A stretch of 44,047 nucleotides of DNA from a virus (taxonomy: Duplodnaviria; Heunggongvirae; Uroviricota; Caudoviricetes): IMG/VR virus record IMGVR_UViG_2671180473_000014; one strand, 5' to 3'. Below are positions 1-32,289 of the stretch, in pieces; within the stretch, counting starts at the first letter, position 1; each line of letters opens with the position of its first letter. The notes below the pieces were generated by a model. The model was not told the DNA's origin. It was given only the letters and a program-made list of their open reading frames with translations, and did no database searches. Position numbers and translations under genes: made by a program.

Positions 1-3000
1 ATACGCTATACCGTTAAAAATAATGGGCGGAATAATAATCTGGCGGTCAAAGTTATGATCATCGCTGATGGTGACTGTAACCGTACCGTTTGGTGTTTCC
101 GTGTTACCCCACGTACCGACTTTTTTCGGGAAGGCTTTTGATACAGCTTTAACGAAATCTCCTCTGACCTGGGTCGCCTCCAGCATGCCCTTAATCGTAC
201 AGTTCTGGTTAATCGTGACATTGTTGAGCGTTCCTGAGTTCGCATTCACACTACCACTGATATCCGCATTTTTAGCGGTCAGCTTTCCGTCTGATGTCAG
301 GGAAAATACCGGAGGACTGCCACCGCTGGTAATGGCGGGGGCTGTCAGGCGCTTCAGGAACACGTCGTTCATGAATATCTGGTTGCCCTGCGCCACAAAC
401 ATCGGCGTTTCATTCCCGTTTGCCGGGTCAATAAACGCGATACGGTTAGCGGCAACCAGAAACTGGCTCAGTTTGCCTTCCTCCGTGTCCTCCATGCTGA
501 GGCCAATACCCGCGACATAATGTTTGCCGTCTTTGGTCTGCTCAATTTTGACGCCCCACATCGCATTCCATTTATCGTTAGCGTCCTTCCACTCTTTCGA
601 AAACTCATCCAGTCTGCTGGCGTTATCCTCCGTCAGATCAACTTTTTCCAGCAGCTCTTTACCGAGATGGGATTCGGTTATCTTGCCTTTGAAAAAATCC
701 AGGTAACCTTCCGCATCATCGCTCGCCCGACCGACGGCCTCCACGAATGCCGATTTGCCAACGGTGTTCACACTGCGGATATAAAAGTAATAATCATGGC
801 CCGGTTTGATATTGATACTGGCGGCTATCCAGTACAGCCCCGCGCCAAGGTAGCGGGCTGTGGTTTCAACCTGCCTGATATCGGTAATCCGCGTTTCCGA
901 GAACCAGAACTCAAACTGTACCGTCGGATCATAAACCGCAAGATGCGGCGTGGCAGTTATCTGAAAATAGCCCGGCGTCAGCTCAATCCGCGACGGTGCT
1001 ACCGGTGCGGCAATCCTGAACGATACCGACGCCGGATCGCCCTGCTGTCCCCAGGCATTTACCGCCCGGACTGTCAGCGTGTACCGTCCCAGCGCCAGTT
1101 GCGTGAAGCGGTATGTGGTTTCCGTCGTCCGGGCCGTGCTGACCAGCCGCTCACTGCCGTCATCCGCTGCCACGGTCAGGCGAAGCATAAAGCTCACCCC
1201 CTTCACCACCTTCGGCGTGTCCCAGCGCGCCAGCACCTGATATTCCCCGCTGTCTGCGGTGACTTCGGCAGTCAGGTGCTGCACCGCTGGCGGCGTGACA
1301 CCATTCACCGTGCCGCTCTGGTCGCCGTCAAAGTGCGCCCCGTTATCCACGATGGCTTCTTTTTCCGGTACATGCTGCACGGCAGTGATGGCATACGTGC
1401 CGTCATCGTTCTCACGGATACTCACACAGCGGAACAGGCGCTGGCGCAACGTCGGCAGCTTCAGCCCCCACACGCTGTATTCAGCAACGCCGTCAGGAAC
1501 ACGGCTCACTTTCACCTTCACGCCGTCGGTGACGGACTGAACCTCCACGCTGACCGGATTGCCACTTCCGTCAACCAGGCTTATCAGCATGGTACCGGAG
1601 GATGGCAGCGTGATTTCACGGTCGAGCGTCAGCGTCCGGGTCTGGCTGTTTACCGCCAGCACGCGCCCGCCGATGCTGATACCCGCATAGTCATCATCAC
1701 AGATTTCAATGACATCGCCCGGCACATGGCGAAGCCCTTCTGCGCCCACGCTGAAGTCCACGGTCTGCGTTTCCAGCAGTTCTGTTTTAATCAGCCACAG
1801 CCCGGCGCGGTGTGCCTGCCNNNNNNNNNNNNNNNNNNNNNNNNNNNNNNNNNNNNNNNNNNNNNNNNNNNNNNNNNNNNNNNNNNNNNNNNNNNNNNNN
1901 NNNNNNNNNNNNNNNNNNNNNNNNNNNNNNNNNNNNNNNNNNNNNNNNNNNNNNNNNNNNNNNNNNNNNNNNNNNNNNNNNNNNNNNNNNNNNNNNNNNN
2001 NNNNNNNNNNNNNNNNNNNNNNNNNNNNNNNNNNNNNNNNNNNNNNNNNNNNNNNNNNNNNNNNNNNNNNNNNNNNNNNNNNNNNNNNNNNNNNNNNNNN
2101 NNNNNNNNNNNNNNNNNNNNACAGCGCATCGCCGAGCAGAAATCACTGAGCACATCCCACGCCTTGCGCTGTGTGGTCAGGTACGCATTACAGGTGATGC
2201 GCGGCTCCGTGCCGCCAAAGCCGTCCGGCACTGACTGGTCGCAGTACTGGCCGATGACATACAGCGCCCATTTGTCCACATCCGCCGCACCAAGACGTTT
2301 CCCCATGCCGTAGCGCGGGTGGGTCAGCATATCCCACAGACACCAGGCCATGTTGTTGCTGTATGCTGGTTTTAACGTTCCGTCCCAGATACCGCTGTAT
2401 TGTCGCGTCTGCGGGTTATAGTTCGACGGCACCTGCAGAATGCGCCCGCGAAGATGATAATTACGACTCACCTGCTGGCTGCCGAACTGCTCCGAGTCCA
2501 CCTGTACGCCGACCAGTGCAGTGTTCGGGTAGCACTGTTTCACATCGATGATTTCGGTGTATGACGACCAGAGCGTTTTGTTCTGCAGCTGGTCTGTGGT
2601 GCTGTCCGGTGTCATCCTGCGCATCCGGATACTGAACGGGCGCGGAGGCAGGTTATCCACCACCACCGAGACCAGATACTGCGAGGTGGTTTTGCCCTTA
2701 ATGGTGATGTCTTTTTCCGTCACCCAGCCACCGTTACGCTGTATCTGAACCAGCAGGCGGACTTCCGACGGATTCCTGTCTCCCTTTGAGGTGGTTTCCA
2801 CCAGTGCCTGTACACCGAAGGTAAAGCGCAGACGGTCGATGTTTGCCGACGTGATGGTCCGGGTGATCGGCGTGTCATATTTCACTTCCGTACCCAGCAC
2901 CGTCTCGGAGCCGGAGGATTCAAACCCCTCCGGCGGTGACTGCTCCTGCTCACCTGCCCGGAACACCACCGTGACGCCGGAGATGTTGGTATTCCCCTCA

Positions 3001-3872: not shown

Positions 3873-4731
3873 TTGTCGGTATACCTCTCTCGTTTGCTCA
3901 GTTGTTCAGGAATATGGTGCAGCAGCTCGCCGTCACCACAGTAAATGGCGGCATGATTCGGCACCGATGAACCAAAACAGCACAGCAGCACATCGCCCGG
4001 CTGCGCCGTTGACAACGGCACCTGATACAGCCCTGTAGCCTCCAGATTATCCAGATAGAGATTCTGACCATTACGCCACCAGTCGTCCTCACGATGAAAA
4101 TCTGGCATCTCAATTCCCGCCAGATGGTAAGCGTCCCGGAACAGCGTGTAACAGTCCGTCACCCCGTGCTCAAAGCGCCGCCCGGTGAGNNNNNNNNNNN
4201 NNNNNNNNNNNNNNNNNNNNNNNNNNNNNNNNNNNNNNNNNNNNNNNNNNNNNNNNNNNNNNNNNNNNNNNNNNNNNNNNNNNNNNNNNNNNNNNNNNNN
4301 NNNNNNNNNNNNNNNNNNNNNNNNNNNNNNNNNNNNNNNNNNNNNNNNNNNNNNNNNNNNNNNNNNNNNNNNNNNNNNNNNNNNNNNNNNNNNNNNNNNN
4401 NNNNNNNNNNNNNNNNNNNNNNNNNNNNNNNNNNNNNNNNNNNNNNGACCAGCCACCACGACAAATCACTCTGCACCTGCAGCCGCCGGTCGGCCTCACT
4501 CAGCCAGGGCAGACCACCGGGGTGGCTGTGGACCAGCGCCACAATCTCACCCTGCATCTCTGCCTGCAGCCAGTCCTCCGGAGCCATCCGGAAATACTCC
4601 TCCGGCTCACCGGAAATATTCACGCAGGGAAAATATCTTTCCCCCTCCGGTGTTCTCACCACGAAGCCGCACGACTCCGCTGGCGCACATCGCCGGGCGT
4701 GCGCCAGAATCGCTGATTCTGTCTGTGTCAT
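3770..4731 (-). CDS. K: Tail assembly protein K (NlpC/P60 plus JAB/MPN type); interrupted by N-run 4190-4446 so true length unknown
   Basis: N-terminal part MTQTESAILAHARRCAPAESCGFVV...EMQGEIVALVHSHPGG (MPN-like) and C-terminal part ...LTGRRFEHGVTDCYTLFRDAYHLAGIEMPDF...NHAAIYCGDGELLHH on either side of the gap, same frame family as lambda K. Confidence 0.85.
4190..4446. other. Assembly gap (257 N) inside K
   Basis: Run of n characters. Confidence 1.
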
Positions 4732-17354: not shown

Positions 17355-18665
17355 TTAAATCCGAAGTGATGTGACTCTTCCGGTCGGTTTGACAATAGGG
17401 AATTGCTTAACGATGAAATAACCTCCGGCATCATTCGGGTGATCATTGCCAGATTTTTTATCAGGCTCCCCCTTCTCATCCCAGACCTGTTGCTCCAGAG
17501 ATTCGGCATATAACGGGCAACGCTTCACATTAACTTTATAGCGACGCTCACCATTGGCATTGCAGAACATTGCATTCATTGAGTTAACGCGATCTTTTAC
17601 TGGCGGGTTCGAGCTGTTCACCACAACGTTAAAACCAGCCTGCTTAAGCTGGGCTATATCCGTCGTACTTGCGTTACTTGATTTTCTGGAATCCCCGGAA
17701 GCATCTGGATAAATATAAATTTCCCTCACTTTCCGGTAATCATTCCCATCATACAGCCAGAAGCGTTCTTTAATGATGCGGATCATATCCGGCGTATCGT
17801 AGGCATTGATGATTTCAGTTACCGCACATGGAAGCCCCAAACGCAGCACATGGACGATTCCCGCCATCTTTCCAACGTTAAAATCCATCCCAATATAAAT
17901 CGGCTCCCCTGGCTGCTCCACTTCTTCGCAATTATTCAGTTTCCGGTCAAACTGATGGTAAACAGTACCACTTGTCAGGTTAGTAAACTGTCCTCGAAGA
18001 TAGGCTTTAATCAGCTCTGGAGGGTATGATTCAAGAAGCGAAGGAATGTAATCTGCTGGCAGGTTCTTTTCATTATCGAAAGTAGATGCCTGCACCAGAC
18101 CATACAGTGAGGCCAGCTCTGTTTTTTCACGCACGGCTTTAACAAACTGCTCGTAGACAAATTTGAATCCTTCCGGCGTGGTTGTAACGTCAATACCGTT
18201 GCGAAGTCCATCAATCTTATAACGCATACGTGCAATTATCTTGCGCCACGCCGTTCTGGCTTTTTCCTTCGGCAAAATGTCCAGTTCATCCACCAACGCA
18301 TTACCAATTTTGAAACCGACGATCGTTTGTGGCTTCTCCATCGATCTGCAGATAGTGGTTCCCCGATACTGGCGTCCGTAATAAAAGTGAACCTCTTTAT
18401 TTCCCTCATTAATTTTTACGTTCAATCCCCAGTCAGCAGCAACTTCTTCCACTGTAGGGTAAAAAATATCGCGAATTTGGGGATACGTTGGCGCAAAATA
18501 TCCCTGATTTATACCTGGATGCTCCCAAATCCCCTTGCATATGCCGCCACACCCAACCCATGTTTTGCCCGAGCCAAAACCAGCAATATAGGCTTTAAAT
18601 TTATGGGGCATTGAAAGAAATCGCGCCTGAGGCACATTAAGCGTCGGAGAGATCATCTTCATCAC
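17355..18665 (-). CDS. Terminase large subunit
   Basis: 436-aa ORF with Walker A motif ...AYIAGFGSGKTWVG... and nuclease-type C-terminal half; overlaps the small-subunit gene by 29 nt. Confidence 0.9.
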   Translation of the reverse strand: MMKMISPTLNVPQARFLSMPHKFKAYIAGFGSGKTWVGCGGICKGIWEHPGINQGYFAPTYPQIRDIFYPTVEEVAADWGLNVKINEGNKEVHFYYGRQYRGTTICRSMEKPQTIVGFKIGNALVDELDILPKEKARTAWRKIIARMRYKIDGLRNGIDVTTTPEGFKFVYEQFVKAVREKTELASLYGLVQASTFDNEKNLPADYIPSLLESYPPELIKAYLRGQFTNLTSGTVYHQFDRKLNNCEEVEQPGEPIYIGMDFNVGKMAGIVHVLRLGLPCAVTEIINAYDTPDMIRIIKERFWLYDGNDYRKVREIYIYPDASGDSRKSSNASTTDIAQLKQAGFNVVVNSSNPPVKDRVNSMNAMFCNANGERRYKVNVKRCPLYAESLEQQVWDEKGEPDKKSGNDHPNDAGGYFIVKQFPIVKPTGRVTSLRI

Positions 18666-19731
18666 TCCTTACTCTGGCATCAACCACATTAATATTGATC
18701 GCCACAGGCTGGGGATGTTCATTATCTTCCACCGTTTCGATCTCTTTGCGCAGCTTCTGGTTTTCCATTCTGCGCCGTTCAATTTCCAGTTCCCGTAGCC
18801 GCTTATCTGCACATAAAGCCCCGCCAGCAGAAAACAAACGCAACAATTCACGCCGGGCGGCAGCCTTATCCTCCAGCAGGATCTCAACGCCGAATTTTCC
18901 GAATTTTGCCCCTGCATATAATTGCCGCGCATCCCCATCAAGCAGAGTGGTATCAGCCATATAAAGCTGTCCCGTTCCCTCACCGCAGCACTTCGGGCAG
19001 TCCGGATTGGGTATGGCGTTATCAACAAAGCCGAGGCCTCCATATTCCGGTTCGGGTTTGCCATCTCTGGAAGCCTGCGCCGCTGCCTTGTCGAATTCTG
19101 CTATATCGCGCCACTGGTAGAGATGATTCTCGCCCCAGCAATAACGGCAGTTAACACGGCGAAATTGTGCAAGCTGATTGGGGTCGGCCAGGACAATAGC
19201 CATCAACTGACTCACTAGTAAATCCAGGTCTGCGGTATAGCGTTTCTGGTACTGATTGCGGAAGTAGCTGATAGCGCGAAAAACCCTGGCATTTCTAAGC
19301 ATACGACTGGCGTTGCTGTTAGCTGTCGCACCTTGCCCCTCATAACCGGCTAGTCGGTACGCCTCTGTCGGCTTTTTACCCTGAGCAACAAGCATCGCAA
19401 ACTTAGCCTGCTGGTCAGAAATGCCGAATTCATCGGGACAGAACGAAAATTCCTCCGCGTCGCCCTCATTCAGGCCCGCATCGAATACTGGCTTTTTTTC
19501 CTGAGATTTTTCGTTCCGCTTTTGTGCAGTCTGCGCAGATTTTTTCTGCGCACTTTTTTGCGCAGTTTTGCACATTTCTGTCTGCGCATTTTTCGGAGTT
19601 TTTTTGATGTAACGACGGGCTGTTGCGTAATTCAGTCCCCTTGCTTCACACCATGCCACCGGAGATATACCGGAGCGGGTGTATTCAGCAATATACTCCT
19701 GCTGCAACGCCCCCCAGTCCGGTCTGCTCAT
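18637..19731 (-). CDS. Terminase small subunit (long form, 364 aa, with Lys/Ala/Gln-rich low-complexity linker)
   Basis: N-terminal HTH-like region (...GISPVAWCEARGLNYATARRYIKK...), directly upstream of and overlapping the large subunit. Confidence 0.6.
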   Translation of the reverse strand: MSRPDWGALQQEYIAEYTRSGISPVAWCEARGLNYATARRYIKKTPKNAQTEMCKTAQKSAQKKSAQTAQKRNEKSQEKKPVFDAGLNEGDAEEFSFCPDEFGISDQQAKFAMLVAQGKKPTEAYRLAGYEGQGATANSNASRMLRNARVFRAISYFRNQYQKRYTADLDLLVSQLMAIVLADPNQLAQFRRVNCRYCWGENHLYQWRDIAEFDKAAAQASRDGKPEPEYGGLGFVDNAIPNPDCPKCCGEGTGQLYMADTTLLDGDARQLYAGAKFGKFGVEILLEDKAAARRELLRLFSAGGALCADKRLRELEIERRRMENQKLRKEIETVEDNEHPQPVAININVVDARVRSDEDDLSDA

Positions 19732-19734
19732 CAG

Positions 19735-19986
19735 TTAGTCCTGATTTTTATCCACCCTGAGTAGTTCGCGCAGAGCAAAGGCATCCCCTTTTCTGGCAAG
19801 CTTAAACAATGCCGCTCGTAACTCGGCTTCACCTTTCGCTCTGCCCTTACGGATGGCCGCATAAAAATCTGTCATTGCTTCCCGATTTTCTTTCAGTCGG
19901 TTCAGATCAACATCCAGAACGTCAGCGATTTGTTGTGCAGTCATCCGGCACGCTGCCAGAGACTCGACTTTCGAATACGGAATCAT
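19735..19986 (-). CDS. Hypothetical small protein (83 aa), possibly DNA-binding
   Basis: ORF MIPYSKVESLAACRMTAQQIADVLDVDLNRLKENREAMTDFYAAIRKGRAK...; start uncertain (alternative Met at 19944); helix-rich basic protein next to the terminase genes. Confidence 0.3.
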   Translation of the reverse strand: MIPYSKVESLAACRMTAQQIADVLDVDLNRLKENREAMTDFYAAIRKGRAKGEAELRAALFKLARKGDAFALRELLRVDKNQD

Positions 19987-20872
19987 TTGTCACCCCCATT
20001 GATATGCAGGGTGTCTTCTTCCTGTATTTTTCGTGAAGGATTTTTACTGCAGCGTTGTTCCAGGTGACCTGATGGTGAATGCGTTTATGACTGGCACCCA
20101 TAAGTGAGATTTTTACGCACGACGGCGCATACATGACGGAGTAAAAACTTTTAACGTAGGTTCCGGAATCCAGATACAGCTCGGTCATTCCGCCGCTGTT
20201 TTTCTGCGTCTGTTTCTGCCCTAACTGGACAGCACCGATCGTCATAAACAATTCACCACAGCGACCGAGATTCGTGTACGTATTCACATCCTCGTTAATG
20301 CGCCCCATGAATGAGAACGGTCGATCAACCGAACAGATAAAGCTGTTCATTGCCTTGCGTTTCACCCACGAAGCATGGCCGCCATTGTCACCAAGAAAAT
20401 CCCCGCCCTGCGACATAGCGATGGAAAGAGCAGGTATTGATTCGTAGTACGCAAGCATTTCAGAAAGGATCTCATCCAGTTTCCTTATCGGGAAATAGGC
20501 CTGGTCATAGTTGCGATCCACCCGAAACTGGAACTCGTGATAATCATCATCGAGCTGAATGAAGTATTTACACCCGACCAGTTTTGCCTGGTCGAAACAG
20601 GCATTACGGGCGTAAAAAATTGAGCGGCGGTCACTAAAATTATCGGCTTCGTCAAAACGACTAGCAATATCGGCTTTGGAAAATACCAGCACCTGTTCAC
20701 CAAATTCAGCCATGTACTGATGCCGTGTCTTATCTTCATCATCAACAACGATAAAAATTTTCCCGGTATAGCCAGCACGACGCAACGTCCGGTAAGTCAG
20801 AACTTTGTCCGGTCGCCCGTGAGTCAGAATAAAGGCGCAAAAATCATCACGCATATTCCTCCTCCCCGCCAT
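19922..20872 (-). CDS. Soluble GT-A-fold-like glycosyltransferase (putative)
   Basis: 316-aa ORF with N-terminal pattern FILTHGRPDKVLTYRTLRRAGYTGKIFIVVDDEDKT and a later IQLDDDYHEF (DxD-like) motif, as in family-2 glycosyltransferases; no hydrophobic transmembrane segments. Confidence 0.4.
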   Translation of the reverse strand: MAGRRNMRDDFCAFILTHGRPDKVLTYRTLRRAGYTGKIFIVVDDEDKTRHQYMAEFGEQVLVFSKADIASRFDEADNFSDRRSIFYARNACFDQAKLVGCKYFIQLDDDYHEFQFRVDRNYDQAYFPIRKLDEILSEMLAYYESIPALSIAMSQGGDFLGDNGGHASWVKRKAMNSFICSVDRPFSFMGRINEDVNTYTNLGRCGELFMTIGAVQLGQKQTQKNSGGMTELYLDSGTYVKSFYSVMYAPSCVKISLMGASHKRIHHQVTWNNAAVKILHEKYRKKTPCISMGVTNDSVFESRVSGSVPDDCTTNR

Positions 20873-21635
20873 GCATGATCTCCACCATGCGCTGCGTCAT
20901 TCGGACAAATCCATTTTCAATAGCCTGCTGATAATCAATGATCACCAGCGCCGACTCCTCGAAAAGGCACTGAATTTCAGCGGGGGCATGAGCGTAATAG
21001 TCCGCAATTCTGCTGAAATTAAACACCGTGTGACGTTCTGCTGCACACAGGAGGAATTTCTCAATATCAGGATCAAGGGACGCCGAACGTATCCGGCTGA
21101 TCAGCTCCTGAGTTTTCGTATCGTCGTACAGTTCACTGATATCCGGTTTACCGCCTGACGGCTCATAAACAGGCGTATCAATTTTCGTCGTATACGGCTC
21201 CTCCTCATTTCCTGTACCGGGCAAAACATCCGTCAACAGTTCATCAATTTCTGCCGGGATGAAGCCTGTCAGGGAGACATCAAAATCAGCATTGATTAGG
21301 TCCGACAGCTCCATCCGCAACAGATCTTCATCCCAGCCAGCATTCATCGGCAGGCGATTATCTGCCAGGCGGTACGCCTTTTTCTGCTCATCCGTCAGGC
21401 CAGACAGAACAATGACCGGAACAGAATCCATTTTGAGCATTTCAGCCGCCATAACACGACCGTGACCCGCAATAATTTCGCCCTTTTCGTCAATCAGCAC
21501 CGGATTAGTCCAGCCGAATTGCTTAATACTTTCTACCAGTTGTGCCACCTGCTCAGTACTGTGCGTCCTGGCGTTGTGCGCATACGGTGACAATTCTTGT
21601 AATGGGCGATAGACTATCTTTAATTTCTCGCTCAT
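20847..21635 (-). CDS. ParB/sulfiredoxin-like nuclease-domain protein
   Basis: 262-aa ORF with ParB-type N-terminal signature (...NPVLIDEKGEIIAGHGRVMAAEM...); stop overlaps the start of the glycosyltransferase-like gene by 26 nt. Confidence 0.65.
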   Translation of the reverse strand: MSEKLKIVYRPLQELSPYAHNARTHSTEQVAQLVESIKQFGWTNPVLIDEKGEIIAGHGRVMAAEMLKMDSVPVIVLSGLTDEQKKAYRLADNRLPMNAGWDEDLLRMELSDLINADFDVSLTGFIPAEIDELLTDVLPGTGNEEEPYTTKIDTPVYEPSGGKPDISELYDDTKTQELISRIRSASLDPDIEKFLLCAAERHTVFNFSRIADYYAHAPAEIQCLFEESALVIIDYQQAIENGFVRMTQRMVEIMHGGEEEYA

Positions 21636-21772
21636 ACAGCCTTGCTTTATGAATAAAACGCACCCCAGCAGCCAGTGCTACTGGGGGCGGAGGTGTTGCT
21701 GGTAAAGTTAGGTATTGGATCAATGAGTGAGTCAACATAATATTAAACTCACAATTATAAATCAGCCATATA

Positions 21773-23230
21773 TTAGGAGCGCCAAAAAAAACCTGAAAAC
21801 AATATAATAACAGGATAAATTTCAAGGCGACCAAGAATCATAGCTATGCACATTAAATATTTTGCAATGTCATTAAGCACTCCGAATGACGATGCAGTAG
21901 CCCCAAAACCTAATCCCATATTATTAATACATGCAGCCACTGTTGCAAATGATGTAAGAAAATCATATCCCATACCATTTAACACCAGTATAAAAAACAC
22001 CGTGAAGAGAGTATAAAGAAAAAAGAAACTCCATACAGACCTCATTACACGATCTGTAACTATCTTCCCTCCTACATTTACACTCAACAACGCTCTGGGA
22101 TGAGAAAGCTGATTTATCTCGTGTTTGCTTTGTTTGAAAAGTATAAGAAATCGAAGTGACTTAATTCCACCACAGGTTGAACCTATACATCCCCCAAAGA
22201 AACTTGACAACAGCAAAAACACTATCGTGTGCGTGGGCCAGTTTGCATAATCCTGCGTAGCTAAACCATTATCAGTGAGCATGGAGCTGGCAAGAAAAAA
22301 CGAATGAATAAAACTTCCATGCAAGTCATACATACCTATATGCCAGACCTGGAAAGAGGTAACAATGATCACCCCTAAGGCTATTAACAGAAAGAAACGA
22401 AGTTCAATATCTCTGATTAAAGGTTTTATCGTTTTTCTGCTAATAACAATATACCAAAGAGTGAAGTTGAAAGCCGATAGCAGGGAAAAAGAACCAGCCA
22501 CCAGCTCAACCAAATAGTTATTAAAATATCCGATACTCTCGCTATGAGTTGAGAAACCACCAAGCGAAACTGTGGAAATCCCGTGACAAATAGCATCAAA
22601 CAAAGGCATTCCTGCAAGTCTATAACAGACAATACAAGCAATACCTAATAAAGAATAAGTTATCCACAGTGTCCGTGACGTATCGGCCAGGCGGGGAGTG
22701 AGTTTGTCATCCTTAAATGGCCCCGGCATTTCTGACTGATAAAGCTTTGCACCACCAATACCCAATAATGGCAATACTGCAACCGCCAGAACAATAACTC
22801 CTAAACCACCTATAAAATTTAACTGTGACCGATAGTACAAATATGCCCGAGGTAATGAACTAACATCATCAATTACAGTTGCTCCTGTTGTTGTTATTCC
22901 AGAAACCCCTTCAAACAGAGCATCAATGAACGTTAAATTAAGTTCTGAGTCAATCCATAAAGGGAATGCACTAATAACAGAAAACAAAATCCAAAACATT
23001 ACAATTATAATAAACCCATCACGGGTACGTAATTGAATGCCAGATTTCTTAGTTGTATACCACGCTCCGCCACCAATGCAAAAAAATATAACGAAAGTTA
23101 TAAAGAAAACGAACAGGCTTTTTTCTTTATAAAACAATGCTACAACCATTGGTGGCAACATTGAAAGACTATAGAGCCAAACCAGGAACCCACACATATG
23201 AGTAACAACTCTTACATGAGATGTATTCAT
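21773..23230 (-). CDS. trkG: Trk-system potassium uptake protein TrkG (TrkH/KtrB family)
   Basis: 485 aa from MNTSHVRVVTHMCGFLVWLYSL...; multi-pass membrane protein with the GIGGAK / GLGFG-type selectivity-loop motifs; known Rac prophage cargo gene; AT-rich relative to its flanks. Confidence 0.9.
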   Translation of the reverse strand: MNTSHVRVVTHMCGFLVWLYSLSMLPPMVVALFYKEKSLFVFFITFVIFFCIGGGAWYTTKKSGIQLRTRDGFIIIVMFWILFSVISAFPLWIDSELNLTFIDALFEGVSGITTTGATVIDDVSSLPRAYLYYRSQLNFIGGLGVIVLAVAVLPLLGIGGAKLYQSEMPGPFKDDKLTPRLADTSRTLWITYSLLGIACIVCYRLAGMPLFDAICHGISTVSLGGFSTHSESIGYFNNYLVELVAGSFSLLSAFNFTLWYIVISRKTIKPLIRDIELRFFLLIALGVIIVTSFQVWHIGMYDLHGSFIHSFFLASSMLTDNGLATQDYANWPTHTIVFLLLSSFFGGCIGSTCGGIKSLRFLILFKQSKHEINQLSHPRALLSVNVGGKIVTDRVMRSVWSFFFLYTLFTVFFILVLNGMGYDFLTSFATVAACINNMGLGFGATASSFGVLNDIAKYLMCIAMILGRLEIYPVIILFSGFFWRS

Positions 23231-23367
23231 ATCTAAATATTCTTTCAATTATAACCACCTTGCTGCAATATTATGATTATACTGTATAAAATTTAACTCC
23301 TCTTAGATCTTACTTCACTGTTCCTTATGAAACAATCATCAAAATGAATCATATTGTAGTTAAGATT

Positions 23368-23675
23368 TTACTTTAAACACTGCTCGGTTATGTATTGCTG
23401 AGCACCTTCAAGTTGGGCCTGCATCATTACCAGTCGTTCCCGGAGGGTGAAATAATCCCGTTCAGCGGTGTCTGCCAGTCGGGGGGAGGCTGCATTATCC
23501 ACGCCGGAGGCGGTGGTGGCTTCACGCACTGACTGACAGACTGCTTTGATGTGCAACCGACGACGACCAGCGGCAACATCATCACGCAGAGCATCATTTT
23601 CAGCTTTCGCATCAGCTAACTCCTTCGTGTATTTTGCATCGAGCGCAGCAACATCACGCTGACGCATCTGCATGT
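23368..23675 (-). CDS. Rz: Spanin inner-membrane subunit Rz (partial; N-terminus lost in N-run)
   Basis: ...MQMRQRDVAALDAKYTKELADAKAENDALRDDVAAGRRRLHIKAVCQ... matches the lambda Rz C-terminal two thirds. Confidence 0.85.
23427..23612 (-). CDS. Rz1: Spanin outer-membrane lipoprotein Rz1 (embedded in Rz, +1 frame)
   Basis: MRKLKMMLCVMMLPLVVVGCTSKQSVSQCVKPPPPPAWIMQPPPDWQTPLNG...; lipobox VVGC and proline-rich body, nested entirely inside Rz. Confidence 0.85.
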   Translation of the reverse strand: MRKLKMMLCVMMLPLVVVGCTSKQSVSQCVKPPPPPAWIMQPPPDWQTPLNGIISPSGNDW

Positions 23676-24039
23676 NNNNNNNNNNNNNNNNNNNNNNNNN
23701 NNNNNNNNNNNNNNNNNNNNNNNNNNNNNNNNNNNNNNNNNNNNNNNNNNNNNNNNNNNNNNNNNNNNNNNNNNNNNNNNNNNNNNNNNNNNNNNNNNNN
23801 NNNNNNNNNNNNNNNNNNNNNNNNNNNNNNNNNNNNNNNNNNNNNNNNNNNNNNNNNNNNNNNNNNNNNNNNNNNNNNNNNNNNNNNNNNNNNNNNNNNN
23901 NNNNNNNNNNNNNNNNNNNNNNNNNNNNNNNNNNNNNNNNNNNNNNNNNNNNNNNNNNNNNNNNNNNNNNNNNNNNNNNNNNNNNNNNNNNNNNNNNNNN
24001 NNNNNNNNNNNNNNNNNNNNNNNNNNNNNNNNNNNNNNN
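23676..24039. other. Assembly gap (364 N) across the endolysin 3' end and the Rz 5' end
   Basis: Run of n characters. Confidence 1.
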
Positions 24040-24425
24040 TTGATATCGCCCTGGTTTATTTTGCGAAGAAGCGTCGATGTTCTGAAATTGCCAGCGCCCA
24101 CGTTGTAAACGAACGAGTAAAGAGCGCCGCGCGTTGTTTCCGGTATATCGACTTTGATGTACGGGTTAATTTGTCTGGCGACAGTGGCAAGGTCTTTATT
24201 CAAGAGTGTTTTGCATTCTGCTTTGGTATACGTTTTACCGAGCATGATGTCTTTTCCTGTATGCCCGTGACATACAGTCCATACACCAACAATATCTTTG
24301 TATGGTATGTAGCTGACACCTTCCAGACCATCGTTACCACTTGGGCCAGTGATTAACACTGATGCTATAGCAATTGCTCCGCCACCAATAGCAGCAGCAA
24401 CGACTTTTCGTAATGATGGAGGCAT
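24040..24425 (-). CDS. R: SAR endolysin (P21 R-type lysozyme; partial, C-terminus lost in N-run)
   Basis: [57 protein letters not shown]...; N-terminal Gly/Ala-rich signal-anchor-release segment followed by a T4-lysozyme-type catalytic region. Confidence 0.85.
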
Positions 24426-24891: not shown

Positions 24892-25287
24892 CTAACCTCG
24901 CATGTCAAAGCCAGATTTCTGAAAATCTCTGTAGACTTCCGGATTGTTGAAGGCCGGAAATTTGGCTTTATGAGCTGCGGACTTTATCGCTTCGCAATAG
25001 GCTTTATCACCGTTACTGGTAGATATTTTTAACGCCGTGCCATCCTGAGAGAATTCCATATGCAACCTGCATTTTTTCCCTTTCCAGTTATGCGGCTCAT
25101 CAAGTTTGGCATTAATTGCAGCTCTGATTCCCCGCGCTTGCGCCCCCCATTCATCCTGATCATCCCAGCGTCCTGAACTGCAACTACCTGTAGCAGTAGT
25201 TTTGTGGCAATCTGAAGGGTGTAAAGGTGTGCATCCCGCAACAAAACCGACCCAAAAAGTCAACATAACGATTTTCTTTAATCCCAC
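24892..25287 (-). CDS. Lipoprotein with TolA C-terminal (domain III)-like domain, paralog 2
   Basis: Signal peptide plus lipobox (MGLKKIVMLTFWVGFVAGC, GTG start with GAGGAG SD) and C-terminal region ...GIRAAINAKLDEPHNWKGKKCRLHMEFSQDGTALKI...KFPAFNNPEVYRDFQKSGFDMRG, collinear with the TolA C-terminal pattern. Confidence 0.6.
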   Translation of the reverse strand: MGLKKIVMLTFWVGFVAGCTPLHPSDCHKTTATGSCSSGRWDDQDEWGAQARGIRAAINAKLDEPHNWKGKKCRLHMEFSQDGTALKISTSNGDKAYCEAIKSAAHKAKFPAFNNPEVYRDFQKSGFDMRG

Positions 25288-25437: not shown

Positions 25438-25866
25438 TCAGGGTTTAAAATCCAGCACCCCATTTTGAAATACTTTATATACTTCCGGCGAAGGGGGGGC
25501 AGGTATATCAGCATTCTTTATCGCATTCATCGCTTCACGACATAAATCGAGGTCTCCACTTTCTCTTTTAACCTCCAGTAGAAGGCCATTCGGGGCCATA
25601 TGCATTCTCAGTGTACACTCTTTTCCTGAATACTTACTCGCATCCCCGAACTGTTTTTCGATGGCGCTCTTGATTTGATGGGCATACAGACGGATATCCT
25701 CACTAACATCAGAAGTACGTTCAGATGAACTCACATACTGTGTCTCTATTGCTTTATCGGAGTAATATGATGTACGGTCATGATAATTTGTCGATACAGC
25801 ATCAGTGCACCCGATAATAATCCCACTAATAATCAACGTAAGAATTGATGCGCTACGAAAACCCAT
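25438..25866 (-). CDS. Lipoprotein with TolA C-terminal (domain III)-like domain, paralog 1
   Basis: Lipobox IIIGC; C-terminal 80 aa YAHQIKSAIEKQFGDASKYSGKECTLRMHMAPNGLLLEVKRESGDLDLCREAMNAIKNADIPAPPSPEVYKVFQNGVLDFKP closely resembles the E. coli TolA C-terminus as recalled (...YAGQIKSAIESKFYDASSYAGKTCTLRIKLAPDGMLLDIKPEGGDPALCQAALAAAKLAKIPKPPSQAVYEVFKNAPLDFKP). Confidence 0.7.
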   Translation of the reverse strand: MGFRSASILTLIISGIIIGCTDAVSTNYHDRTSYYSDKAIETQYVSSSERTSDVSEDIRLYAHQIKSAIEKQFGDASKYSGKECTLRMHMAPNGLLLEVKRESGDLDLCREAMNAIKNADIPAPPSPEVYKVFQNGVLDFKP

Positions 25867-30111: not shown

Positions 30112-31113
30112 TTAGTAATCTGCGTGTTTCGCACTTTTCAGAAATGCTTTCATATTTTCATTAGGTCGCTCAATTTCGAAGTTACTTCCATATAACTCTT
30201 GTAATTTTGGCCATAACTTACTTAATAACCCTCTCCTGCGATAAAATGGATGTATCCAAACGGTAGATAGGTACGGAGAATTTGCATTTGAATTGTTTAT
30301 TGTGACCAGCCCAACTAAACATTGTCGATAACCACTATTATCCATTGATTGTATTTCTTCGACGAATGGATACGCGATTACATCAGTCCAACCATGATCG
30401 GTTGTATCCCATTGCATTCCGTCATGACATTCCTTCGACTGATAGCGGCGTAAAGCTACACACGCGAGCTTTTGCCAATCTGGAGAATTAATTGTGATCT
30501 CTTCATCGTATGACGCGCCTATTGGAGCGGGTATTGGTCTGATTAATCCAGCATGGCATTCATCATAGAACTTCATGTTTCCCTCAGAAACGTTGTGTAC
30601 GTTGGGTTGCTCCATGTGTGCGCCATTCAAAAATAGCTCTGATAGTAGTGTATCTACACTGTAATCTTTATTGATTATTGTCGGCTTAGAGTTTTTCTTA
30701 TTAAGGCCGCGAGTAACGATTTTTTGATCAATGTTAACAACATGGAATAATCCGTCGGGGAGGCTAGCGAACCACGATGGGGCATCGGACCAGAATAGCA
30801 TGCCTTTTGTACTTCTTAAGAGTTTAATTAAGTTAATACAAGCTTCTTCACTAGTCTTGCCGTTGATGCGAAGTATGTTAGGACTAAAGTAATATTCATC
30901 CATATCAGGGAATGCAGCTTCGCAAAACTCCTGTACATAATTTAGCACCTGGATTCTACAGAGATCATCATAGCTGGTAATAACTAAGGGGGTATCTTCA
31001 TTACTATTATGATTATCAATAATGCAATCTATAGCGAGACTTACTGCTTTGCGTATCACTTCAGTTGAATCTAACGACTCTAAAAATTTTGTCTTTCGTG
31101 TGCGAATATCCAT
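30112..31113 (-). CDS. Hypothetical protein B (333 aa) of the AT-rich two-gene operon; C-terminal region weakly GNAT-like
   Basis: ATG 31111-31113, 15 nt after the stop of gene A; C-terminal ...CLVGLVTINNSNANSPYLSTVWIHPFYRRRGLLSKLWPKLQELYG resembles an acetyltransferase beta4-alphaC core (R-x-x-G motif), imperfectly. Confidence 0.55.
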   Translation of the reverse strand: MDIRTRKTKFLESLDSTEVIRKAVSLAIDCIIDNHNSNEDTPLVITSYDDLCRIQVLNYVQEFCEAAFPDMDEYYFSPNILRINGKTSEEACINLIKLLRSTKGMLFWSDAPSWFASLPDGLFHVVNIDQKIVTRGLNKKNSKPTIINKDYSVDTLLSELFLNGAHMEQPNVHNVSEGNMKFYDECHAGLIRPIPAPIGASYDEEITINSPDWQKLACVALRRYQSKECHDGMQWDTTDHGWTDVIAYPFVEEIQSMDNSGYRQCLVGLVTINNSNANSPYLSTVWIHPFYRRRGLLSKLWPKLQELYGSNFEIERPNENMKAFLKSAKHADY

Positions 31114-31128
31114 GTATGACCTGCGCTA

Positions 31129-32151
31129 TTAAAATTCATGAATGAACGGTTTGTCATCTGGTTGCAAAATGGTGGTTTTATTCGTTGCTACATTTAAACT
31201 GTTGTAGAGCATAATTGCCAGGTTCGATGCATTTTCAATCAGCGTTTCAAGATCCTGGTCTGTAATCACTACGAGGTTCCCTTCTTTATCCTTTCCACCA
31301 CGATGCACTAAGTGATTTCGATTGAGGGTTGCCAATTCAATAGCTTCTATCGGACAGTCTTTTTGTACTTTTATATCGAATGTAGCTTCATAGCGGTCGA
31401 TTACCTTTTTAGTGCTATGCCAGCTTGCACTGATCAAGTGTTCCTTGATTGACCTGATTAGCTCTCCCCTAATTTTCTCGATGGGTTCACCCTTGAAAGG
31501 CAACGCAGCAATATCTTTGCTTACTTTAAATTCAGTCTTACCTTTTTCTATACAATTGGCTATGTAGACATCATCTTTCTCTATAGAATTAATGAATAGC
31601 TCAACATAAAGCGTTTCCAAAGCTGTAATAACATTCGTGTAGAGCAAACTAAGCAAGTGGTTTTTTTGCTGTTGTTCAGTTTTATCTTTTGCAAGTTTTT
31701 TTATTTTATCGATATTATCAATGAATTTTAAATACGGATTACCGGAAGACGTTACAGCGTCGTAGATATCATCATCGTACCAATCATCTATATTATTTGA
31801 GTTTCCAGACCAGTCAAAACATTGTGTTTGTAATTCATCTACTAATTCCTCAATATACTCAGATTTAACATATTGACCGAAGATGGATTGTAGTTCTTCG
31901 CTCGCATCATACGGCCCGCCATATATGTAAGCATAGCCACCTTCTCTACTTTCATACGGACAAGCATTTGCCGGATCTTCAAAGTTTTCAAAGAACCAGT
32001 TTTTCATTACTTCGAGTTGATCTTTTTTGCTTATGTATTTTAAAGATTTTAGTGGAACTTTCTTTCCATTAACCTCGAAAACAATTTTCACGATGTAACG
32101 CTCCCTTGTATCAATTGCGCAACTATTATACCACAGCGAAATACAGGGCAT
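31129..32151 (-). CDS. Hypothetical protein A (about 340 aa) of the AT-rich two-gene operon; lone R-x4-H (HEPN-like) motif near the C-terminus
   Basis: Likely start ATG 32149-32151 with AGGAGG Shine-Dalgarno 6 nt upstream (MPCISLWYNSCAIDTRERYIVKIVFEVNGKK...); the ORF track extends it to 32220 via an upstream alternative start; contains ...ELATLNRNHLVHRGGKD... Confidence 0.55.
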   Translation of the reverse strand: MPCISLWYNSCAIDTRERYIVKIVFEVNGKKVPLKSLKYISKKDQLEVMKNWFFENFEDPANACPYESREGGYAYIYGGPYDASEELQSIFGQYVKSEYIEELVDELQTQCFDWSGNSNNIDDWYDDDIYDAVTSSGNPYLKFIDNIDKIKKLAKDKTEQQQKNHLLSLLYTNVITALETLYVELFINSIEKDDVYIANCIEKGKTEFKVSKDIAALPFKGEPIEKIRGELIRSIKEHLISASWHSTKKVIDRYEATFDIKVQKDCPIEAIELATLNRNHLVHRGGKDKEGNLVVITDQDLETLIENASNLAIMLYNSLNVATNKTTILQPDDKPFIHEF

Positions 32152-32289
32152 AACCTGCCTCCTTAAACTAACATACCATGAGCCAGCAATGTCCGCTATT
32201 GGCACAAAGCGGACAACCACGCTAGCTCTCCCCTGTGCCAGAAAAATGTCAATTTACATATGAACTAATGCTCTTTGATCTAGTAACGT

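What the first reader, a model, noticed from the sequence alone, without database searches (positions are those of the whole stretch)
19735..21635. ParB-like protein translationally coupled to a soluble GT-A-like glycosyltransferase directly upstream of the terminase genes
The ParB/Srx-type protein (IIAGHGR motif) overlaps by 26 nt a 316-aa protein with family-2 glycosyltransferase hallmarks (FILTHGRPDKV...IFIVVDDEDKT, LDDDY) and no membrane segments, followed by an 83-aa basic protein and the small terminase. A soluble sugar transferase in the packaging operon could modify DNA (anti-restriction) or a virion or host component. The ParB-like partner could be a DNA-binding or packaging accessory.
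Basis: partly seen in the sequence, partly recalled or inferred. Interest (0 to 1): 0.5.

Follow-up and report, generated by a model that had tools for sequence, protein, structure and literature searches.

The report
ParB-partnered sugar transferase before terminase
A Rac-like E. coli prophage carries, just ahead of its DNA-packaging genes, a tightly coupled pair (a ParB-like protein and a DNA-type sugar transferase) that always occurs together in phages of bacteria and archaea, yet no enzyme that makes the sugar's usual attachment point on DNA was found, so what it glycosylates is an open, easily testable question.

Summary
On the minus strand lie ynaK (ParB-like, 262 aa), a 310/316-aa soluble GT-A glycosyltransferase, an 83-aa basic protein, TerS, TerL and portal. 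The window is a Rac-like E. coli prophage.

Two corrections:
- The transferase belongs to Pfam TAGT (TET-associated DNA glycosyltransferases, E 4e-34), not GT2.
- Its likely start is Met7, so the overlap with ynaK is 8 nt (ATGCGTGA), not 26.

New here:
- In all ~118 related loci fetched, a YnaK-family gene sits immediately upstream of the TAGT gene. This holds ahead of at least four terminase families and in phages of Lactobacillus, Nocardia, Porphyromonas and the archaeon Haloarcula.
- The TAGT-specific part of YnaK is a Y-x-K-I-x-x-P-x-YEP linker plus a helical C-domain. In some loci this part occurs without ParB.
- YnaK's N-domain is the one fused to phage DNA methyltransferases.
- No TET/JBP dioxygenase or hydroxymethylase was found in the window or annotated in two complete small phage genomes.

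Best reading (about 0.5): a two-subunit, ParB-coupled, late-expressed DNA glycosyltransferase with an unknown acceptor. The main rival is protein glycosylation. I rate it a new variant of a known kind, interest about 0.6.

The parts
20847..21635 (-). ynaK: 262-aa acidic (pI 4.5) ParB-like partner protein. It has a ParB/Srx NTP-binding fold (res 1-~100), a helical extension (103-134), a disordered linker and a helical C-domain.
   Evidence: PF02195 29.3 bits and phrog_620 E 1.7e-90. AF2 model. Foldseek matches to MxParB, BsParB, Noc and KorB, best E 2e-6. AGHGR aligns with ParB AGERR and LADN with LIEN. RefSeq gene name ynaK.
21216..21635 (-). YnaK N-terminal 140 aa: the ParB_N subtype that is also found as the N-terminal domain of phage DNA methyltransferases.
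   Evidence: tblastn finds 497 phage records, listed hits 29-58% identical, many annotated as DNA, adenine or cytosine methyltransferase. phrog_498 'DNA methyltransferase' E 6e-51. PADLOC MTase_II model positions 13-151, E 1.5e-38.
21156..21200 (-). Conserved linker motif P-Y-T-x-K-I-D-T-P-V-Y-E-P-S (res 146-160) in a region of low predicted order.
   Evidence: Y148, T149, K151, P155, Y157, E158 and P159 are invariant in A2. The motif is kept in divergent and ParB-less partners. Only the YEP core is kept in the Porphyromonas phage. pLDDT is below 50 for residues 136-170.
20871..21122 (-). YnaK all-helical C-terminal domain (res 172-255), the TAGT-specific partner domain.
   Evidence: Identity tracks that of TAGT across loci (42-70%) while the N-domain decays. 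It occurs with the linker motif but without ParB_N in L117 and L106. 1195 clusters at 50% identity match at E<=1e-3; in the 150 listed the domain is almost always at the C-terminus.
19922..20854 (-). TAGT-family GT-A glycosyltransferase (310 aa from Met7; the maximal ORF runs to 20872). RefSeq names it 'GREB1-related protein'.
   Evidence: PF20691 E 4.1e-34 and phrog_842 E 8e-104. R20, D108-D110 and E194-D195 are invariant. The AF2 GT-A core is confident for res 1-220. Foldseek matches to SpsA, ColGalT1, GtrB and glycogenin and to viral TAGT proteins, best E 2e-19.
20847..20854 (-). 8-nt overlap ATGCGTGA: the TAGT start codon lies inside the end of ynaK, preceded by the Shine-Dalgarno sequence GGAGGAGG (20858-20865).
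   Evidence: Sequence read directly. Homologues start at MRDDFC. Overlaps of 4-41 nt (maximal ORFs) occur in nearly all loci.
19735..19986 (-). 83-aa basic protein (RefSeq start gives 69 aa). It overlaps the E. coli-specific C-terminal tail of TAGT. It goes with this terminase type and is not part of the conserved pair.
   Evidence: phrog_309 'terminase small subunit', profile positions 145-218 of 319, E 8e-23. Present in Yersinia as an 82-aa gene. Absent in phi jlb1 and NTR1.
18637..19731 (-). Small terminase subunit (364 aa).
   Evidence: PF03592 and phrog_51 E 7e-75.
17355..18665 (-). Large terminase subunit (Terminase_6N/6C).
21663..21686 (-). Terminator-like hairpin between the trkG moron and ynaK. 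Late transcription would have to read through it.
   Evidence: 10-bp stem with 7 G-C pairs and a T-rich tail.

Best explanation
YnaK and the 310-aa TAGT protein form a two-subunit glycosyltransferase that acts on phage DNA late in infection.

Shown:
- The two genes are translationally coupled.
- They are always adjacent and under strong purifying selection.
- The enzyme is a GT-A sugar-nucleotide transferase of the TAGT DNA-glycosyltransferase family, with the R...DDD...ED catalytic motifs intact.
- The conserved, TAGT-specific part of YnaK is its YEP-containing linker plus helical C-domain.
- Its N-domain is the ParB/Srx NTP-binding module that phages otherwise fuse to DNA methyltransferases.

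Inferred:
- The C-domain and linker bind or complete the transferase.
- The ParB module, probably nucleotide-gated, loads or holds the basic enzyme on duplex DNA. This is by analogy with ParB176, which activates the phage thymine dioxygenase 5mYOX176 on dsDNA.
- Expression at the head of the Q-dependent late operon, just before terS/terL, means concatemeric DNA is marked before or during packaging, presumably to escape restriction in the next host.
- The donor is probably a UDP-hexose.

The acceptor is unknown. No hydroxymethyl-pyrimidine pathway was found, so the sugar would have to go onto a canonical base or backbone position, probably at sparse sites.
For: Family and fold:
- TAGT Pfam, PHROG and viral structure matches; GT-A model and PDB matches.
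- Catalytic residues R20, DDD108-110 and ED194-195 are invariant. They match the R...DDD...EDY/F motif of phage GT-A enzymes shown to glycosylate 5hmC (bioRxiv 10.1101/2023.12.21.572611).

Obligate pairing:
- A YnaK-family ORF lies directly upstream in all ~118 loci.
- This includes complete phages phi jlb1, c5, HHTV-2, NTR1 and Porphyromonas phage005b.
- The pair sits ahead of Terminase_6, GpA, TerL_ATPase and Terminase_3 terminases.

Which part of YnaK matters:
- Partners with only the linker and C-domain exist.
- C-domain identity tracks TAGT identity.

Link to DNA:
- The N-domain equals the N-terminus of ParB-DNA-methyltransferase fusions.
- Most TAGT homologues are basic, median pI 8.7.
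- In loci where no terminase follows, the neighbours are replication genes: a sliding clamp in L106 and a helicase and primase in L117.
- TAGT is 50-60% identical across bacterial phyla and 43% to an archaeal virus. That fits a universal substrate such as DNA.

Selection: synonymous sites are saturated (pS 0.73-0.90) against pN 0.13-0.37.

Precedent: a ParB-like activator is required by a phage DNA dioxygenase on dsDNA (PMC13229309).
Against: - No TET/JBP dioxygenase, dCMP/dUMP hydroxymethylase or DNA methyltransferase was found in the window (Pfam on 36 ORFs; RefSeq annotation). None is annotated in the complete genomes of phi jlb1 (38 kb) or c5 (31.8 kb). All characterised TAGT enzymes put sugar on a hydroxyl of 5hmC, 5hmU or an existing sugar, so there is no known acceptor on this DNA.
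- YnaK is very acidic (pI 4.5, net charge about -24) and shows no HTH DNA-binding domain.
- The ParB catalytic Glu is replaced by His.
- As far as I recall, no DNA modification has been reported for these long-studied Lactobacillus phages.
- The complex itself was not modelled, because no multimer tool was available.
Confidence: 0.5

Rival explanations
1. The pair is a protein glycosylation system. TAGT transfers sugar to a Tyr, Thr or Ser of a protein. The most obvious candidate is the invariant Y-T-x-K-I-x-x-P-x-Y-E-P segment of its own partner (glycogenin-like priming). Other candidates are a packaging or virion protein.
For: The human TAGT-domain protein GREB1 O-GlcNAcylates a protein, ERalpha (PMC7968844), and RefSeq names this protein 'GREB1-related'. 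The partner carries an invariant, disordered Tyr/Thr-rich motif. The motif persists when ParB_N is absent. Glycogenin, which glucosylates its own tyrosine, is among the structural matches. This reading removes the missing-acceptor problem.
Against: The partner's N-domain is the module otherwise fused to DNA methyltransferases. Terminase and virion proteins differ in family between loci while TAGT stays 50-60% identical. In the distant Porphyromonas pair only the YEP core of the motif is kept. Virion-glycosylating GTs seen here (L005, Glycos_transf_2) sit among the structural genes instead. No function is evident for a glycosylated ParB.
Confidence: 0.22
2. The enzyme is a conventional hydroxymethyl-pyrimidine or sugar-extending TAGT. 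Its acceptor is supplied from elsewhere: a dioxygenase too divergent to recognise, a helper phage or the host, or rare oxidative 5hmU.
For: The family assignment. Thousands of 5mYOX-like contigs escape the Pfam TET/JBP model (PMC13229309). The Vibrio phages with a 44%-identical TAGT have large nucleotide-metabolism gene sets, including a thymidylate synthase homologue.
Against: YnaK's C-terminal half is all-helical and too short for a double-stranded beta-helix dioxygenase. In the 31.8-kb phage c5 the only proteins annotated as hypothetical and at least 150 aa are ORF25, ORF44 and ORF45 (155-208 aa), below the roughly 290-300 aa typical of active phage 5mYOX; the one truncated 209-aa member tested was inactive. 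The same pair occurs in hosts as different as Haloarcula, Lactobacillus and E. coli.
Confidence: 0.12
3. The adjacency is only operon packing. YnaK is a packaging or partition accessory (pac/cos recognition or nicking). The transferase is an unrelated moron, or a decaying remnant of a ParB-5mYOX-GT cluster.
For: ParB-like genes next to terminases are common in phages. The pair sits right after cos in c5. In E. coli K-12, by my recollection, and in many genomes the region is truncated: only 867 of about 1600 matching genomes keep at least 80% of it.
Against: Co-occurrence is 100% over ~118 loci. A dedicated C-domain co-varies with TAGT. ParB-less partners are still paired with TAGT. Both genes are under strong purifying selection. 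Pairing is independent of terminase family.
Confidence: 0.06

Closest known systems
TET/JBP-associated glycosyltransferases (Pfam PF20691 TAGT): phage GT-A enzymes that glycosylate 5hmC, and the T2/T6 beta-glucosyl-HMC-alpha-glucosyltransferase
   Same: Same Pfam family, well above threshold. Same GT-A fold and R...DDD...ED active-site motifs. Phage-encoded and soluble.
   Different: No 5mYOX, C5-methyltransferase, hydroxymethylase or alpha/beta-GT accompanies it. It has a conserved extra C-terminal region (res 229-290) outside the Pfam domain. It has an obligate YnaK-type partner. It is only 23% identical to the TAGT homologue of the T4-like Aeromonas phage 65, and T2/T6 were not retrieved at E 1e-3.
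ParB-dependent phage thymine dioxygenases (5mYOX176/ParB176; PMC13229309)
   Same: A ParB-like protein with an NTP-binding N-domain and a C-terminal domain but no obvious DNA-binding domain. It is encoded next to a post-replicative DNA-modifying enzyme, often near terminase genes.
   Different: The enzyme here is a glycosyltransferase, not an Fe/2OG dioxygenase. Dependence on the partner is inferred, not measured.
Phage ParB-DNA methyltransferase fusion proteins (phrog_498; PADLOC MTase_II model)
   Same: The first ~140 residues are homologous (29-58% identity in listed hits; E 6e-51 and 1.5e-38). Some hits lie at the very start of the phage record, as a gene placed before the terminase would.
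   Different: The effector is not fused. A linker motif and a helical domain replace the methyltransferase, and the catalytic activity is on a separate polypeptide.
GREB1, the eukaryotic TAGT-domain protein
   Same: It shares the TAGT glycosyltransferase domain, and RefSeq names the E. coli protein 'GREB1-related'.
   Different: GREB1 is a large cytoplasmic protein reported to O-GlcNAcylate a protein (ERalpha). It has no ParB partner and no phage context.
Chromosome and plasmid partition ParB (Spo0J, P1 ParB, KorB, Noc)
   Same: The N-terminal CTPase fold. Conserved positions N21/R23, G57/R60 and D92/N93 correspond to the phosphate-binding box residues.
   Different: No HTH/parS-binding domain, no ParA gene nearby, the hydrolysis Glu replaced by His, and a C-terminal domain specific to this family.

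Membership tests
TAGT (PF20691) DNA glycosyltransferases | Match to the family profile above the curated threshold | tested here: met
   118.8 bits against a cut-off of 27.5, profile positions 4-205 of 205. phrog_842 E 8e-104.
TAGT (PF20691) DNA glycosyltransferases | GT-A fold with R...DDD...ED(Y/F) active-site motifs | tested here: met
   The AF2 core is confident for residues 1-220 and the Foldseek hits are GT-A enzymes. R20, D108-110 and E194-D195 are invariant in 20 homologues. The motif is as defined in the bioRxiv GT paper.
TAGT (PF20691) DNA glycosyltransferases | Genomic association with an enzyme that creates the acceptor (TET/JBP 5mYOX, a ThyS-type hydroxymethylase, or alpha/beta-GT) | tested here: not met
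   None among 36 window ORFs scanned with Pfam or in the RefSeq annotation of the identical prophage. None is annotated in the complete genomes of phi jlb1 and c5.
TAGT (PF20691) DNA glycosyltransferases | Transfer of a sugar to DNA | not testable with these tools
   Needs LC-MS of nucleosides or an in vitro assay.
ParB/Srx (ParB-CTPase fold) | ParB_N profile match and fold | tested here: met
   PF02195 29.3 bits against 26.3. phrog_620 E 1.7e-90. Foldseek matches to MxParB-CTPgammaS, BsParB-CDP, Noc, PadC and KorB, E 2e-6 to 1e-4.
ParB/Srx (ParB-CTPase fold) | Nucleotide-binding and hydrolysis box residues (QPR; GERRxR; ENxxR) | tested here: inconclusive
   R23 (nearly invariant), R60 and N93 equivalents are conserved, but Q is replaced by N21 and the hydrolysis Glu by H58; the box reads AGHGR. 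Binding of CTP, ATP or GTP cannot be decided in silico.
Partition ParB (ParABS) | HTH parS-binding domain, ParA partner and parS sites | tested here: not met
   No HTH Pfam hit and only short helices between the N and C domains. No ParA in the annotated prophage. No convincing parS-like repeats in 18500-21900.
ParB-activated DNA-modifying enzymes (ParB-dependent 5mYOX class) | A DBD-less ParB-like gene (NBD + CTD) adjacent to the gene of a post-replicative DNA-modifying enzyme | tested here: met
   Architecture. Adjacency in all loci.
ParB-activated DNA-modifying enzymes (ParB-dependent 5mYOX class) | The enzyme is an Fe(II)/2OG 5-methylpyrimidine dioxygenase | tested here: not met
   The enzyme is a GT-A transferase. 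The YnaK C-half is helical, not a jelly-roll.
ParB-activated DNA-modifying enzymes (ParB-dependent 5mYOX class) | Enzyme activity on dsDNA depends on the ParB partner | not testable with these tools
   Needs co-expression and in vitro assays.
   PF20691 was the only Pfam family matched at E<=0.01. TAGT is described as a sister group of GT2 (PMC13216743).

The most novel reading that the evidence does not exclude
YnaK-TAGT is a self-sufficient, ParB-loaded DNA glycosylation system that puts a sugar directly on canonical DNA (an exocyclic amine or another position) without any hydroxymethyl precursor. It would mark sparse sites before packaging. That would be a new chemical class of DNA modification, widespread in temperate and virulent phages of bacteria and archaea, and present in roughly 16-30% of complete E. 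coli genomes.
Probability: 0.2. Interest if true: 0.9.

Novelty: new variant of a known kind. Interest (0 to 1): 0.6.

Why it matters
Phage DNA glycosylation is currently understood as a second step after hydroxymethylation, by ThyS-type enzymes before replication or by TET/JBP dioxygenases after it. About two thirds of phage GT contigs, and 288 of 753 TAGT-encoding phage genomes, have no such first step, and their role is undefined.

This finding isolates a large, coherent subset of those orphans:
- about 1000 partner-domain clusters at 50% identity;
- phages of bacteria and an archaeal virus;
- roughly 16-30% of complete E. coli genomes.

It shows that the subset has its own obligate partner, built from the ParB module that phages attach to DNA methyltransferases. 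That gives a concrete two-gene unit to test.

If the substrate is DNA, this extends the newly described ParB-activated DNA-modifier principle from dioxygenases to glycosyltransferases and may reveal a new modification chemistry. That would matter for restriction evasion, Type IV restriction, phage therapy and sequencing artefacts. If the substrate is protein, it is a new phage glycosylation system tied to packaging.

It can be tested directly in E. coli with standard plasmids and nucleoside LC-MS.

Tried and rejected
1. Hidden dioxygenase in YnaK's C-terminal half. Rejected: about 120 residues, all-helical, no Pfam hit.
2. An acceptor-making enzyme elsewhere in the prophage. None in 36 ORFs scanned, from integrase to tail genes, or in the RefSeq annotation.
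3. GT2 membership or a membrane-bound seroconversion GT. No PF00535 hit and no hydrophobic segment.
4. A natural ParB-TAGT fusion (Rosetta stone). None among the top hits of either search or in the 150 representatives. In Lactobacillus phage Ld25A a 45-residue match to the TAGT C-terminus lies under the gene annotated as ParB nuclease, which suggests a remnant rather than a fusion; I did not inspect it further.
5. The 83-aa protein as a third module component. Not conserved with the pair.
6. parS-like sites around the module. Only short chance-level repeats, plus a repeat cluster inside terS.
7. Known defence-system membership. The only PADLOC hit was the MTase_II N-terminus.
8. NCBIfam gave no family for the transferase.
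9. The Foldseek afdb50 library, wanted to test similarity to trypanosome JGT, was unavailable.
10. Iyer et al. 2013 (the origin of TAGT and of the ParB-directs-modification idea) could not be read. The supplement with ParB176 sequences is not held.
11. Literature searches for ynaK, HHTV-2 plus ParB, ParB plus glycosyltransferase plus terminase, and ParB plus glucosylation found no description of this pair.
12. The AF2 model of the TAGT C-terminal third (222-316) was poor, so nothing was inferred from it.
13. I started a whole-genome survey of Vibrio phage pv27 for a hydroxymethylase and stopped after 100 of 191 kb.
Full report
WHAT IS THERE. The window is a Rac-like lambdoid prophage of E. coli. 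The 2-kb stretch is 100% identical to chromosomes such as strain EC2. It occurs in about 1600 of 5426 complete E. coli genomes, 867 of them with at least 80% of it, and in 10 deposited phage records. On the minus strand the late region runs: Q-like antiterminator, lysis genes, the trkG moron (21773-23248), ynaK (20847-21635, 262 aa), a glycosyltransferase (19922-20872 as maximal ORF), an 83-aa basic protein (19735-19986), TerS, TerL (Terminase_6) and portal.

TWO CORRECTIONS. First, every homologue of the transferase begins MRDDFC, which is Met7 of the maximal ORF. RefSeq uses that start, and GGAGGAGG lies 3 nt before that ATG. The overlap with ynaK is therefore the classic 8-nt ATGCGTGA rather than 26 nt. 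Second, the enzyme is not a Pfam GT2. Its only Pfam match is PF20691, the TET-associated glycosyltransferase (TAGT) family, at 118.8 bits over the full profile. It also matches phrog_842, annotated beta-glucosyl-HMC-alpha-glucosyltransferase.

THE ENZYME. An AlphaFold2 model is confident for the GT-A core (residues 1-220) but poor for residues 222-316. Foldseek finds GT-A enzymes in the PDB (SpsA, ColGalT1, GtrB, glycogenin; E about 1e-4) and TAGT-domain proteins among viral models (best E 2e-19). R20, D108-D109-D110 and E194-D195 are invariant in 20 homologues. They correspond to the R...DDD...EDY/F signature of phage GT-A enzymes shown experimentally to glycosylate 5hmC in DNA.

THE PARTNER. 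The YnaK model shows four parts:
- a ParB/Srx fold (residues 1-95), with Foldseek matches to M. xanthus and B. subtilis ParB with CTP analogues, Noc, PadC and KorB at E 2e-6 to 1e-4;
- a short helical extension (103-134);
- a low-confidence linker (136-170) that nevertheless carries an invariant motif, P-Y-T-x-K-I-D-T-P-V-Y-E-P-S;
- an all-helical C-domain (172-255).

The ParB box II reads AGHGR where ParB has AGERR, and box III reads LADN where ParB has LIEN. The phosphate-binding Arg and Asn are therefore kept, and the hydrolysis Glu is His. There is no HTH domain and no ParA gene, and the protein is strongly acidic (pI 4.5). The helical, 120-residue C-half excludes a hidden jelly-roll dioxygenase.

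THE KEY RESULT: AN OBLIGATE PAIR. I collected about 118 loci encoding relatives of the transferase from IMG/VR, from one genome per species, from metagenome contigs and from GenBank phages. I then searched their six-frame ORFs with profiles of both proteins. In every locus a YnaK-family ORF lies immediately upstream on the same strand. It overlaps by 4-41 nt (maximal ORFs) in all but two cases, which have gaps of 1 and 17 nt. In a handful of loci a contig end, a split gene or a second TAGT copy blurs the count.

The pair is found in:
- enterobacterial prophages;
- Bacteroides, Lachnospiraceae, Desulfovibrionaceae, Prosthecochloris and Saccharibacteria contigs;
- Lactobacillus gasseri phage phi jlb1, genes 024/025, 11-nt overlap;
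- virulent L. delbrueckii phage c5, ORF1/ORF2, directly after cos;
- Nocardia phage NTR1, Orf1/Orf2/TerL;
- Porphyromonas gingivalis phage005b, whose TAGT is only 27% identical;
- the archaeal halovirus HHTV-2, gp21/gp22.

The downstream terminase belongs to at least four Pfam families: Terminase_6, GpA, TerL_ATPase and Terminase_3. The module is therefore not tied to one packaging machine. In two loci where no terminase follows, the neighbours are replication genes: a sliding clamp in L106 and a helicase and primase in the 191-kb Vibrio phages.

WHICH PART OF YnaK BELONGS TO THE TRANSFERASE. In the Vibrio phages and in a Lachnospiraceae contig the upstream gene encodes only the linker motif and C-domain (139 and 134 aa), with no ParB_N. 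Across 16 diverse pairs, C-domain identity to the window (42-70%) tracks TAGT identity (40-78%). The N-domain falls to 22-30% or is absent.

A search of 1.84 billion representative proteins with the linker plus C-domain found 1195 clusters at 50% identity (1008 at E<=1e-10). In the 150 listed, the domain is almost always at the C-terminus of proteins of about 130-300 aa. About 70% have a recognisable YnaK-type N-domain. Most of the rest have divergent ParB-like N-domains (NPR...G[HN]xR) that Pfam does not detect. No fusion to the transferase was seen. Both genes are under strong purifying selection: synonymous sites are saturated (pS 0.73-0.90) while pN is 0.13-0.37.

WHAT THE ParB MODULE SAYS. 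The first 140 residues of YnaK hit 497 phage records. Listed hits are 29-58% identical, and many lie under genes annotated as DNA, adenine-specific or cytosine-5 methyltransferases, that is, the ParB-methyltransferase fusions. The same link appears in PHROGs (phrog_498, E 6e-51) and PADLOC (MTase_II model positions 13-151, E 1.5e-38). So this ParB subtype is a module that phages attach to DNA-modifying enzymes. In one case it is fused to the enzyme. Here it is attached through a dedicated adaptor domain.

A 2026 study showed that a DBD-less ParB-like protein is required for a phage thymine dioxygenase to act on double-stranded DNA, and that GTs, ParBs and terminases are the commonest neighbours of phage 5mYOX genes (PMC13229309). 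According to Burke et al. (PMC8256090), Aravind and co-workers proposed earlier that ParB directs modification enzymes during packaging. I could not read the original paper.

THE DIFFICULTY. Characterised TAGT enzymes add sugar to the hydroxyl of 5hmC or 5hmU, or to a sugar already on DNA. I found no TET/JBP dioxygenase, ThyS-type hydroxymethylase or DNA methyltransferase in the window (36 ORFs scanned; RefSeq annotation). None is annotated in the complete genomes of phi jlb1 and c5. In c5 the only hypothetical proteins of at least 150 aa are 155-208 aa, shorter than the roughly 290-300 aa typical of active phage 5mYOX; the one truncated 209-aa member tested was inactive.

The literature treats such orphan GTs as undefined. 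[quoted passage not shown] 288 of 753 TAGT phages have solitary TAGTs of unknown role. I found no paper describing this pair, its partner domain, or any function for ynaK.

BEST EXPLANATION (confidence about 0.5). The pair is a two-subunit, ParB-coupled glycosyltransferase expressed at the head of the late operon that marks replicated phage DNA before or during packaging.
- Shown: family, fold, intact catalytic motifs, obligate adjacency and coupling, the dedicated partner domain, homology of the ParB module to that of DNA methyltransferase fusions, and selection.
- Inferred: that the linker and C-domain bind or complete the enzyme, that the ParB module loads or holds it on duplex DNA in a nucleotide-gated way, that the donor is a UDP-hexose, and that the purpose is anti-restriction.
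- Unknown: the acceptor.
- Supporting the DNA reading: the enzyme is unusually conserved across hosts (50-60% across phyla), which fits a universal substrate. It is mostly basic (median pI 8.7). Its occasional alternative neighbours are replication genes.
- Against it: the missing acceptor chemistry, the acidity of YnaK, and the lack of any reported modification in the Lactobacillus phages (the last from my own recollection).

RIVALS.
- Protein glycosylation (about 0.22). GREB1, a TAGT-domain protein, O-GlcNAcylates ERalpha, and the invariant Tyr/Thr linker of the partner could itself be the acceptor, in the manner of glycogenin. This removes the acceptor problem but leaves the methyltransferase-type ParB module unexplained.
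- A conventional hm-pyrimidine GT whose precursor comes from an unrecognised or external source (about 0.12).
- Mere operon neighbours, or a decaying remnant (about 0.06). This is contradicted by the 100% pairing, the co-varying domain and the selection.

NOVELTY AND SCORE. The parts are known families, and the principle of a ParB-like protein coupled to a DNA-modifying enzyme is now known for dioxygenases and, as fusions, for methyltransferases. As far as I could find, three things are not described:
- this large TAGT clade has an obligate partner;
- the partner has a defined linker-plus-helical domain that can exist without ParB;
- the unit works in genomes with no hydroxymethylation step.

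I rate it a new variant of a known kind, interest 0.6. If the sugar goes directly onto canonical DNA (probability about 0.2), it would be a new class of DNA modification.

Noticed in passing
window 1821-2120, 4190-4446, 23676-24039: Three runs of N (300, 257 and 364 nt) mask parts of the tail gene J region, the NlpC/P60 tail gene region and the phage lysozyme gene. ORFs spanning them, such as the 597-aa plus-strand ORF 520-2313 and the 269-aa ORF 23616-24425, are partly artefacts of the masking.
   Followed up: partly
window 21773-23248 and 21663-21686: The potassium transporter gene trkG (TrkH family, E 1e-144) is a moron inserted between the lysis cassette and ynaK. It is lower in G+C (39% in 22001-23000) and is followed by a terminator-like hairpin that late transcription must read through.
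   Followed up: partly
window 19507-19606 (inside the 5' part of terS): A cluster of 4-5 imperfect direct repeats of TTTTTCTGCGCA-like units spaced 12-36 nt apart. They encode the AQK-rich low-complexity stretch of TerS (about residues 42-75). This could be a pac-type recognition array or just a repetitive coding segment.
   Followed up: no
window 30112-31113 and 31129-32220 (minus strand): Two adjacent large genes of unknown function in the nin-like region, in a low-G+C stretch. The 333-aa protein has a sub-threshold GNAT match and the 363-aa protein a sub-threshold HEPN/RES N-terminal domain match. Neither hits PADLOC. They could be a moron or a defence or anti-defence pair.
   Followed up: partly
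window 24892-25287 and 25438-25866 (minus strand): Two prophage genes encode TolA C-terminal-domain proteins (E 1e-14 and 2e-23) just upstream of the lysis genes. They may be decoys interfering with Tol-dependent colicin or phage entry.
   Followed up: no
window 19922-19986: The E. coli transferase carries a tail of about 22 residues that other genera lack, so the gene runs 65 nt into the 83-aa ORF (23 nt by the RefSeq start). This suggests that an ancestral stop codon was lost.
   Followed up: partly
L001 21679-21936 (E. coli EC2, identical to window 20847-21635): RefSeq annotates ynaK there as a truncated pseudogene of 258 nt although the full 262-aa ORF is intact and identical to the window. 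This is probably an annotation carry-over from the truncated K-12 ynaK.
   Followed up: partly
L003 2180-3332 (Yersinia enterocolitica prophage): Genes for a heat-labile-enterotoxin-like A subunit (Enterotoxin_a/Scabin-like) and an LT-IIB-like B subunit lie about 300 nt upstream of the ParB-TAGT pair. This is the same moron position that trkG occupies in E. coli.
   Followed up: no
L111 3581-6161 (Hyphomonadaceae MAG): Here the YnaK homologue is followed by a 564-aa protein in which the TAGT domain is fused to a C-terminal region with a SAM-methyltransferase-like motif (VVDLGNGLG). A second stand-alone TAGT gene follows. This hints at a more elaborate modification, such as a methylated or extended sugar.
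   Followed up: partly
L117, L121, L122 (Vibrio phage pv27, 191 kb): The phage whose TAGT partner lacks ParB also encodes a PurZ-like enzyme annotated '2-aminooxy adenylosuccinate synthetase' (which, if a true PurZ, would suggest a 2-aminoadenine genome), a thymidylate synthase next to DHFR and a dNMP kinase. Only 100 of 191 kb were inspected.
   Followed up: partly
L005 15837-16894 (metagenomic HK97-like phage): Besides the ParB-TAGT pair before its terminase, this phage has two Glycos_transf_2 genes after the capsid genes. It therefore carries two separate glycosyltransferase sets in different modules.
   Followed up: no
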